Source: Octopus vulgaris
Taxonomy: Eukaryota
NCBI GenBank assembly: GCA_951406725.2
Contig: OX597820.1
Coordinates: forward strand, 5,456,001-5,520,000
Direction of reading: 5' to 3'
DNA length: 64,000 nucleotides
The notes beneath the pieces were generated by a model. The model was not told the origin of the DNA and made no database searches. It saw nothing but the letters and a program-made list of their open reading frames with translations. The stretch's first letter is position 1; each line of letters begins with the position of its first letter. Position numbers and translations under genes: made by a program. Positions 28,181-30,631 of this stretch are shown piece by piece.

Positions 28181-28734
28181 TAATAAAAACAAAAAACACA
28201 AGGCAGTATCTCATATTTTTGTTTGCTCACACAATTTATCTTTGTGTGTGTGTGTGTGTGTGTGTATACATACATACATACATATATATCTATACATACA
28301 TACATATATATATATATATACATACATATATATATATACATACATATATATATATATATACATACATATATATATATATATACATACATATATATATACA
28401 TAATAGAAATGTTCGAAGGTTATATGGATACAGTTTGTGTATCAAATAGCTAACTTAAGGCGATGGCCTCATGGAGCTAATAAGCGGACAGCTTTTTTCT
28501 TATTTTTATAAGAATGCCATATTAGTATGGCGATAACTATTATTTATATATACATACATATATATATATATATATATATATATATATATATATATATATA
28601 TATATATATATATATTTCATTCAAACTTTGAATTTCGTGGTACTGGTCATGCTTTGGCTCGCTCTGACACTGAGTTGAGATGGTGCATTCTAGTATCTCA
28701 AAATTTAATATACAATTATTCATAATTGTCGTAT

Positions 28735-28826
28735 CCTGCGCCGATGAGAGAAGAAGTTTGGGTAAAGTAGAATTTTCTAATTCTTATGCTATCCTAAAAC
28801 TTGATCTCGAAACGTACGTCCGTAGG
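28735..28826 (+). ncRNA. Type I hammerhead ribozyme, copy 1 (predicted cleavage after 28820)
   Basis: Stem I CCTGCG/CGTAGG; core CCGATGA; stem II GAGA..AAGTTTGGGTA...TATCCTAAAACTT..TCTC; GAAA; stem III AC-GTAC-GT; GTC triplet. Confidence 0.8.
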
Positions 28827-29325
28827 TAACTTAAAATTGCATGATAGATTGCCGTCATTTCATTCTTTCTTTCTTACCTGTCTGTGTTTGCCTTTCAAGT
28901 GCTGTGTTTTTACTGAGATCCCCCTTTTAGTAGAAGGAATAGCTATATCTCTTTGACTGCTATTTCTAAATTCGGTGTGTTGGTGAGGCAATTCGTTGCT
29001 AAACCCTTAATTACTTAGTATTACTTAAATTTTCCTCGAATGGGGCTTTTACATGCCGAAATCTACTTGGTGTAATTGATAATTATCCCTAATTAATTAA
29101 TTTCACCCTTTATTATTATTACTGATAACCATATTTTATCCCAGTGAATGACCGCAGCATTTTGTCTTGGCTACACGCGGGTGGAAGGGGGCTGGTGACA
29201 CAAACTTTCATTCAAACTTTGAATTTCGTGGTACTGGTCATGCTTTGGCTCGCTCTGACACTGAGTTGAGATGGTGCATTCTAGTATCTCAAAATTTAAT
29301 ATACAATTATTCATAATTGTCGTAT

Positions 29326-29417
29326 CCTGCGCCGATGAGAGAAGAAGTTTGGGTAAAGTAGAATTTTCTAATTCTTATGCTATCCTAAAACTTGATCTCG
29401 AAACGTACGTCCGTAGG
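29326..29417 (+). ncRNA. Type I hammerhead ribozyme, copy 2 (predicted cleavage after 29411)
   Basis: Identical to copy 1, 591 nt downstream. Confidence 0.8.
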
Positions 29418-30631
29418 TAACTTAAAATTGCATGATAGATTGCCGTCATTTCATTCTTTCTTTCTTACCTGTCTGTGTTTGCCTTTCAAGTGCTGTGTTT
29501 TTACTGAGATCCCCCTTTTAGTAGAAGGAATAGCTATATCTCTTTGACTGCTATTTCTAAATTCGGTGTGTTGGTGAGGCAATTCGTTGCTAAACCCTTA
29601 ATTACTTAGTATATATATATATATATATACATATATATATATATATATATATATATATATGTGTGTGTGTGTGTGTGTGTGTGTGTGTGTGTGTGTGTGT
29701 GTGTGTGTGTATGTAAAAAAATACAAACTGGGACAAGAACGCAAAACATTTAGAAGACAATACAAAAACACGGACTTCCATCTTCAGTCAAGAACCGGAT
29801 CATCCTAGCAATTTCGGCTGATTAATCTTGAGATCGCTCCGATCAGACCAGCCCCAAGGAAAAATTAAGCTACGAGCATTAGATTTCTTGGAAAAAGGAT
29901 CGAATGTATACGAAACAAGGACAGAAAAACGGACGTTGCCACACGAATATAAATACAAAAAACAATAATAGTAATAACAGGACAAAAACAGCGGGTGTCT
30001 TACGACTATAGACAGTACAACTTAGCTTAGCTGGCGTATTTGGAAAAAAATGCCTTTTTCGGCAGACGAAGAAAACGATGTTCTCGTGGCGGGTGTTTGA
30101 AGCCGAAAGGCTGGTTGACCAGCGGTCACGTGAGAGGAGAAGAGAGAGAAAAAAGGGGGCAAAGGAATCAAAGAGATAGAGAAAAAGAGGGACAAAGGCA
30201 CCAAAGGGGGGAGAAGAGAGAGAAAGAAAAAATTAAAGAGGGGAGAAGAAAGAGAGCGTGCCAAGGATTGGCTTGGCGACAGAATCAGTGAGGGGCAAAG
30301 TGAGAAAGACAGAGAAATGTGAGAGAGTGGGGGAAGAGGAGACCAAAGAATCAGAGGCAAGAAAAGAGAAAAGGAGGAGGAGGGAGAGAGAGAGAGAAAG
30401 AGACAGATCAAAGTGGAGTGCAAAGTGTGACAGGCAGAGAAATATAGGAGAGGGGGAGAGAGAGACAGTGTTATAGAGTCGTACCAAATACCAAATACAT
30501 ATATATATATATACATAAATATATATACATATATATATGCATACATATATATATATATACATATATATATACATACATATATATATATACATATATATAT
30601 ATATATACACACACATATATATATAATAAAA

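What the first reader, a model, noticed from the sequence alone, without database searches (positions are those of the whole stretch)
28615..29612. Protein-free double-hammerhead element: candidate retrozyme producing a 591-nt (circular) RNA
Seen: two apparently identical 407-bp direct repeats with a 591-bp period, flanked by (TA)n, with no ORF. Each repeat has a complete type I hammerhead: stem I CCUGCG/CGUAGG, core CCGAUGA...GAAA, GUC triplet. Known: metazoan non-LTR retrozymes are tandem hammerhead repeats whose monomers (typically a few hundred nt) self-excise, circularise, and are thought to use Penelope-like RT. Inference: cleavage after 28820 and 29411 releases an exact 591-nt monomer. 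The 1.7-unit copy is what reverse transcription around a circular template would leave, and repeat identity implies a young insertion. Unusual points are the large monomer, a ~60-nt stem II and C at core position 4. A candidate helper Penelope element, also ending in (TA)n, lies 13 kb away.
Basis: partly seen in the sequence, partly recalled or inferred. Interest (0 to 1): 0.82.

Follow-up and report, generated by a model that had tools for sequence, protein, structure and literature searches.

The report
Two-site primed hammerhead retrozyme family
This is one recent copy of a protein-free jumping repeat, present at several hundred places in this animal genome, whose 591-base unit carries a predicted self-cutting RNA; the fixed ends and back-to-back arms of its copies suggest that a Penelope-type enzyme likely copies one RNA, probably a circle, from two set start points.

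Summary
It is not an LTR pair but 1.69 units of a dispersed tandem family: 381 C4 and 448 U4 ribozyme cores genome-wide (controls 0 and 1), with compensatory stem II changes. In 105 loci, 3' ends fall at two sites about 100 nt apart, and 35 of 36 two-armed insertions with both ends at these sites use one of each (p=5e-10). 5' ends ignore the cleavage site, and units within a locus are five times more alike than between loci. This is a Penelope-type target-primed footprint and favours a circular template, without proving it. No coding element carrying the unit was found; the Penelope 13 kb away shares no sequence with it, so the helper is unidentified. Cleavage, expression and circles are untested, and C4 is a known activity-lowering variant. 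The size is within the published range. It is a new family of known non-LTR retrozymes; this scan already reported the same architecture for other families on other DNA of this genome.

The parts
28615..29612 (+). Single-armed insertion of 1.69 units of a 591-bp tandem element; 3' end at start site A (unit position 407), 5' end a truncation point
28735..28826 (+). Type I hammerhead 1 (C4 core, 61-nt stem II, palindromic stem III ACGUACGU); predicted cleavage after 28820
   Evidence: sequence
29326..29417 (+). Type I hammerhead 2, identical; predicted cleavage after 29411
28821..29411 (+). Predicted 591-nt monomer between the two cleavage sites; circular fold -153.9 kcal/mol, z=-4.5 against 60 shuffles
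   Evidence: prediction only
28950..29135 (+). Structured module shared with at least three other repeat families: stem 28969-28976/29053-29060 encloses start site A; a hairpin (29071-29107) precedes start site B
29014..29034 (+). Start site A (unit 400-420), in a predicted unpaired AT-rich loop; the window copy ends at the equivalent position 29612
29111..29141 (+). Start site B (unit 497-527), AT-rich, 3' of the module hairpin
28541..28615 (.). (TA)n target, left flank
29610..29714 (.). (TA)n then (TG)n, right flank

Best explanation
The element is one young insertion of a dispersed, non-coding 583-591-bp tandem family carrying a predicted self-cleaving type I hammerhead, likely mobilised in trans by a Penelope-like reverse transcriptase/endonuclease and probably copied from a circular monomer. 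Shown: copies sit in (TA)n, end at two fixed internal sites (A, unit 400-420; B, unit 497-527), are 5'-truncated at scattered points, run through the cleavage site without a scar, and half are two-armed with one arm ending at A and the other at B. Inferred: tandem loci are transcribed; hammerheads cut (weakly or as dimers, given C4 and the 2-bp palindromic stem III); a host ligase closes the monomer; a PLE protein recognises the structured module and cuts both strands of a (TA)n tract; the two DNA ends prime internally on the same RNA at A and B; and the RT runs round the template for 0.5 to about 10 units. The window copy is a single-armed product primed at A that stopped after 998 nt.
For: Family size: 381 C4 + 448 U4 exact cores, controls 0 and 1; about 210 + 345 loci by extrapolation from contigs C1-C3. 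Ribozyme fold kept across subfamilies: 97.6% of 421 cells paired, 3 of 18 pairs with double changes, slid controls 16-44% paired. Ends: 53 of 53 single-armed loci end at A (43) or B (10); of 52 two-armed loci, 36 have both ends at A or B and 35 of these are A+B, against 50% expected (p=5e-10); 109 of 129 3' ends are followed by TA repeats (85 loci). These match PLE hallmarks in print: partial tandems, inverted 5'-truncated copy, a tail at one end only, (TA)n targets (PMC8557442); cutting and extension of both strands, internal initiation at two sites, predicted dimer (PMC11167929). Read-through: 3 of 135 5' ends within unit 200-214 against 3.4 expected; 234 units span the cleavage site with no deletion and one insertion within unit 198-215. 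Monomer bottleneck: divergence 0.40% within loci against 2.0% between (184 segments, 68 loci); 19 locus-private variants fixed in all covering units of 16 loci, and 10 of 16 testable ones present in both arms; arms of 2.4 units or more occur in 20 loci of at least four haplotype groups. Non-coding: none of 53 outer 5' flanks runs directly into a PLE ORF or a shared extension, and 38 of 53 meet (TA)4 within 45 nt.
Against: No cleavage, expression, strand or circle was shown. C4 'considerably decreases activity in vitro' (PMC3088659 passage). Stem III has about 0 pairing probability in the monomer fold. Li et al. found cleavage in only 1 of 9 tested Xenopus retrozyme dimers. For the anole PLE, uncleaved RNA is the dominant template and hammerhead cleavage is dispensable. 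Most private variants (95 of 123) are in single units, and 9 are in several but not all units; some show period-3 or irregular patterns (L070, L090, L093) that a single monomeric circle does not explain without multimeric circles or later recombination. Sixteen of 52 two-armed loci have at least one end outside A/B. No autonomous PLE sharing the unit or module was found. The loci are not a random sample (best BLAST hits plus the first-listed pattern hits). Related sequences inflate covariation scores.
Confidence: 0.68

Rival explanations
1. Same PLE-driven two-site priming, but the template is an uncleaved linear multimeric transcript from tandem loci. The hammerhead is a weak or dispensable relic of a PLE pseudo-LTR, and arrays are homogenised or lengthened later by gene conversion and unequal exchange.
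For: Uncleaved RNA is the dominant template for the anole PLE; C4 lowers activity yet the C4 subfamilies are the youngest; read-through of the cleavage site is equally expected; irregular and period-3 variant patterns occur.
Against: Linear copying can only shorten arrays, yet long homogeneous arms recur in at least four haplotype groups; private variants are fixed across both arms; older U4 loci do not have more cores per locus than young C4 loci (1.30 vs 1.82, though biased by decay of the exact pattern); core and stems are conserved over about 20% divergence.
Confidence: 0.22
2. The unit is only the pseudo-LTR of an autonomous PLE not yet found, and the loci are 5'-truncated copies of it.
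For: Xenopus retrozymes resemble PLE pLTRs. One locus (L121/L137) has the unit's A end abutting a truncated PLE RT ORF with only a few TA between. Only 105 of perhaps 550 loci were examined.
Against: Head-to-tail arrays of up to about 10 units with no ORF between them; no 5' flank leads into an ORF; in L121 the ORF lies 3' of the unit and lacks its 5' part; 70 PLE loci show the module only as separate nested insertions.
Confidence: 0.07
3. Satellite-like DNA amplified at the DNA level (for example extrachromosomal DNA circles), with no RNA step.
For: Tandem organisation and homogeneity within loci.
Against: Strand-specific fixed 3' ends, scattered 5' truncation, A+B two-armed structure, (TA)n targeting, conserved RNA fold on one strand only (-153.9 vs -104.1 kcal/mol).
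Confidence: 0.03

Closest known systems
Metazoan non-LTR retrozymes (Cervera and de la Pena 2020, PMC7229834, parts 2-4 of 6 read; Li, Clavereau and Pollet 2026, bioRxiv 10.64898/2026.07.22.740005, parts 1-3 of 5 read)
   Same: Non-coding tandem units, one type I hammerhead per unit, GC below 50% (37%), dispersed monomers to multimers, highly self-paired predicted circle, co-occurrence with PLEs; unit length inside the reported 51-972 bp.
   Different: 61-nt stem II; C4 core in young subfamilies; no PLE pLTR homolog found; circles not shown; fixed two-site 3' ends and two-armed insertions were not described in the parts of these papers that I read.
Penelope-like element insertions (Craig et al. 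2021, PMC8557442, passages and parts of the supplement; Frangieh et al. 2024, PMC11167929, parts 1-2 of 4)
   Same: (TA)n targets, 5' truncation, partial tandems, inverted 5'-truncated arm, a tail on one end only, internal initiation at two sites.
   Different: No ORF; the tail is about 100 nt rather than 30-40 nt; arms of up to about 10 units.
Non-autonomous Chlamys elements such as MRC1 (PMC8557442 passage)
   Same: Non-autonomous PLE-type elements with multicopy head-to-tail insertions.
   Different: Those resemble the 3' ends of their autonomous partners and mostly lack hammerheads; here a hammerhead is present and no partner was found.
Newt/axolotl satellite hammerheads and PLE minimal hammerheads (PMC7229834; PMC6765202 passages)
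   Same: Short stem III with palindromic loop, expected to work best as a dimer.
   Different: Two-bp stem III and a much longer stem II.

Membership tests
non-LTR retrozyme | Type I hammerhead in each tandem unit, at least two consecutive | tested here: met
   not recognised by Rfam, called from motif, fold and covariation
non-LTR retrozyme | Non-coding unit of a few hundred bp, GC below 50% | tested here: met
   longest stop-free stretch 67 codons; GC 37%
non-LTR retrozyme | Multi-copy, dispersed monomers to multimers | tested here: met
non-LTR retrozyme | No fixed LTR pair with an internal region | tested here: met
   The 407-bp repeat length is specific to this copy; other loci hold 0.55-12 units. 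PBS/PPT not searched separately.
non-LTR retrozyme | Self-cleavage of the transcript | not testable with these tools
   C4 variant and 2-bp stem III make it uncertain
non-LTR retrozyme | Accumulation as circular RNA | not testable with these tools
   Only contigs available, none on record as RNA
non-LTR retrozyme | Relationship to the pLTR of a resident PLE (Li et al. 2026; found for 24 of 57 Xenopus families) | tested here: inconclusive
   No similarity in the PLE loci examined; the genome's PLE diversity was sampled, not exhausted
autonomous Penelope-like element | RT plus GIY-YIG ORF between pseudo-LTRs | tested here: not met
autonomous Penelope-like element | Insertion signature: tandem/inverted arms, one-sided tail, microsatellite target | tested here: met
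plant LTR retrozyme | Type III hammerhead in two LTRs, 4-bp TSD | tested here: not met
   Type I topology; tandem arrays; a TSD cannot be defined inside (TA)n

The most novel reading that the evidence does not exclude
The family is a viroid-sized circular RNA parasite whose conserved ~190-nt module, shared by at least four repeat families and not found in the sampled PLEs, positions a dimeric PLE enzyme so that its two halves prime the two ends of a cut (TA)n at mutually exclusive sites on one circle. The arrays would then be genomic recordings of repeated laps round single RNA molecules, including multimeric circles favoured by the weakened C4 ribozyme and positions misread differently on each lap.
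Probability: 0.3. Interest if true: 0.72.

Novelty: new member of a known kind. Interest (0 to 1): 0.46.

Why it matters
Mobilisation of animal retrozymes by PLE enzymes from circular templates is proposed in the papers read but not demonstrated. This family supplies a small defined substrate with base-level predictions: two start sites about 100 nt apart, used one per arm; read-through of the ligation junction; and a natural U4/C4 pair of ribozymes. The A+B rule also offers a testable account of the PLE 'tail at one end only'. The class itself is known, and sister families in this genome were already reported by this scan.

Tried and rejected
Rfam: no hammerhead match. Expression: no RNA holder listed. 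Contigs of four runs only guessed to be RNA cover all 30 bins and carry the head-to-tail joint, but contigs cannot show strand, ends or circles, and tandem loci give the same joint, so this was not used as evidence. A second laying on four runs of unknown kind was likewise uninformative.

Helper search, all negative: window PLE against the unit; 30 + 20 GIY-YIG loci, where module hits (L201, L220, L228 inspected; L239 not inspected) were separate insertions into (TA)n; 20 longer loci of three PLE families; five short motifs in the supplement of PMC8557442 and a by-eye look at two octopus Naiad 3' ends; a Hydra-like PLE fragment beside L077, which has its own terminus and is separated by about 60 nt of TA. 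PLE fragments near L025, L086 and L097 are not joined to the unit's 5' end.

Scar at the cleavage site from template jumping: none. Excess misreading at the junction base (unit 207): 4 of 191 cells, from only two loci and at a CpG, so not accepted. 'Unusually large monomer' rejected. The first pair count used a misregistered structure and was replaced.

Rows dropped: L056/L102 (pattern hit with no match to the unit), nine duplicate loci, and overlapping loci replaced by L091-L093. L122 (78% identical) falls below the 84% cut used in the architecture counts.

Literature searches found no paper describing this family or cephalopod retrozymes. The library lacks most subscription journals, and bioRxiv supplements (Li et al. 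tables) were not seen.

Full report
OBSERVATION. The two repeats are identical over 407 nt, 28615-29021 and 29206-29612, period 591, between (TA)n tracts. Each holds a complete type I hammerhead: stem I CCUGCG/CGUAGG, core CCGAUGA, a 61-nt stem II closed by G-C, GAAA, a two-pair stem III within the palindrome ACGUACGU, and C17 at 28820 or 29411. In genomic context stems I and II form with probability 0.70-0.75 and 0.55-1.0, and stem III about 0; the palindrome can pair between two ribozymes. No frame is open for more than 67 codons. Rfam finds no hammerhead, so the call rests on motif, fold and covariation.

FAMILY. The genome (2.8 Gb, 227 contigs; that it is octopus-like is my inference from recall and from earlier scan notes, not a tool result) holds 381 exact C4 cores and 448 U4 cores, with reversed controls 0 and 1. 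Extrapolation from contigs C1-C3 gives about 210 and 345 loci. C4 copies are 97-100% identical to the window unit, and U4 copies mostly 85-94%, down to 78%, so C4 is derived and young. Across 24 distinct ribozymes 97.6% of 421 cells pair, three stem II pairs change on both sides, and slid controls pair 16-44%; the sequences are related, so the shuffle count is not a probability. The monomer folds better than shuffles as a circle (z=-4.5, 60 shuffles) and much better on the ribozyme strand.

INSERTION ANATOMY. I examined 105 distinct loci (best BLAST hits plus first-listed pattern hits; not a random sample). All 53 single-armed loci end at site A (unit 400-420; 43) or site B (497-527; 10). Of 52 two-armed loci, whose 3' ends point outwards on both sides, 36 have both ends at A or B; 35 are A+B, one B+B and none A+A, against 50% expected if arms chose independently (p=5e-10). 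The other 16 have at least one end elsewhere. I ran this test after earlier scan notes mentioned two start points in other families. In the first 85 loci, 109 of 129 3' ends run into TA repeats, and loci hold 0.55 to 12 units. Site A lies in a predicted unpaired loop closed by a long-range stem, and B just after a hairpin. This module is shared with at least three other repeat families in the genome, some seen as tandems, with modest covariation (91.9% of 172 cells paired, two double changes). The window copy is a single arm primed at A; its 407-bp repeats are a by-product of where copying stopped.

TEMPLATE. 5' ends are not enriched at the cleavage site (3 of 135 against 3.4 expected), and 234 units cross it with no deletion and one insertion nearby, so the template is not a linear cleaved monomer. 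Units differ by 0.40% within loci and 2.0% between loci. In 57 young loci, 19 private variants are fixed in every covering unit, 95 are in single units and 9 in several; 10 of 16 testable ones occur in both arms. Long arms occur in at least four haplotype groups. Linear copying can only shorten arrays, so repeated regeneration of long homogeneous arrays from distinct monomers points to a circle (inference). Against this: uncleaved RNA suffices for the anole PLE (PMC11167929); U4C lowers activity in vitro though it permits viroid infectivity (PMC3088659 passage); only 1 of 9 Xenopus dimers cleaved; and L070, L090 and L093 show period-3 or irregular variants that need multimeric circles or later recombination. 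I put the circle at about two to one once PLE-type mobilisation is accepted.

HELPER. The element at 42147-47560 is a Penelope-like element with RT, a CxxC linker and GIY-YIG motifs and terminal repeats; Neptune-type is my reading of the linker against PMC8557442. This copy's RT frame is split, but 91 scored copies are 99% identical, with open frames up to 1214 aa, so the family is a plausible helper by age and target. It shares no sequence with the unit or module, and neither do the other PLE loci sampled, where module hits are nested insertions. None of 53 outer 5' flanks leads into a PLE ORF. The helper is unidentified, and the pLTR-only reading is unlikely but not excluded.

EXPRESSION. 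No run on record as RNA holds the stretch; contig coverage says nothing on strand, cleavage or circles.

COMPARISON. It meets the sequence-level definition of a metazoan non-LTR retrozyme (PMC7229834; Li et al. 2026); the two functional criteria are untestable here. Its size is inside the published 51-972 bp. The ends reproduce known PLE hallmarks: inverted truncated arm, one-sided tail, (TA)n target (PMC8557442) and two internal initiation sites on both strands, with a tail of about 100 nt instead of 30-40. Seven literature searches found no description of this family. The scan itself has reported the same architecture for 360-, 485- and 490-bp families in this genome and long stem II ribozymes elsewhere, but no look-alike of this sequence.

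VERDICT. Real; a new family of a known kind. Its value lies in the sharp, testable A+B priming rule and the natural U4/C4 pair, not in novelty of class. Interest 0.46.

Noticed in passing
window 28409-28540: 3' fragment of another young repeat family (40 scored copies, 86-100% identical); L246 shows it as tandem and inverted with a hammerhead-like motif of altered core. It shares the (TA)n tract with the element studied.
   Followed up: partly
window 31011-31169 (-): Old fragment of the same structured module, from a related family.
   Followed up: partly
window 42147-47560 (+): Penelope-like element of a very young abundant family, RT frame split in this copy; a further terminal fragment lies at 21895-22117 (-).
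   Followed up: partly
L136/L133, L142/L147/L153, L143/L177: At least three further non-coding families (one of about 540 bp, tandem) share the module; the first has a hammerhead with a shorter stem II, the second a decayed one.
   Followed up: partly
L093, unit position 322; L101, unit position 207: In L093 all 13 segments have C or T where the family has G, in no periodic order; in L101 the base after the cleavage site reads C, A, C, T, T. Could be one template position misread on each lap, or CpG decay with conversion.
   Followed up: partly
L121:119-1629 / L137: The unit's A end abuts a 5'-truncated RT ORF of a second PLE family with only a few TA between: template switch or nested insertion.
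   Followed up: partly
L205:2660-2720: A PLE family with a 781-aa open frame appears by eye to carry a hammerhead with a U3-A8 core variant in its terminal repeat.
   Followed up: no
L053: The right flank is a short inverted copy of the left flank's SINE-like tail, suggesting copying across onto the target.
   Followed up: no
window 24307-26835 and 35565-37960: Two other reverse-transcriptase ORFs (RVT_1; zf-RVT at 37484-37960), probably LINEs.
   Followed up: no
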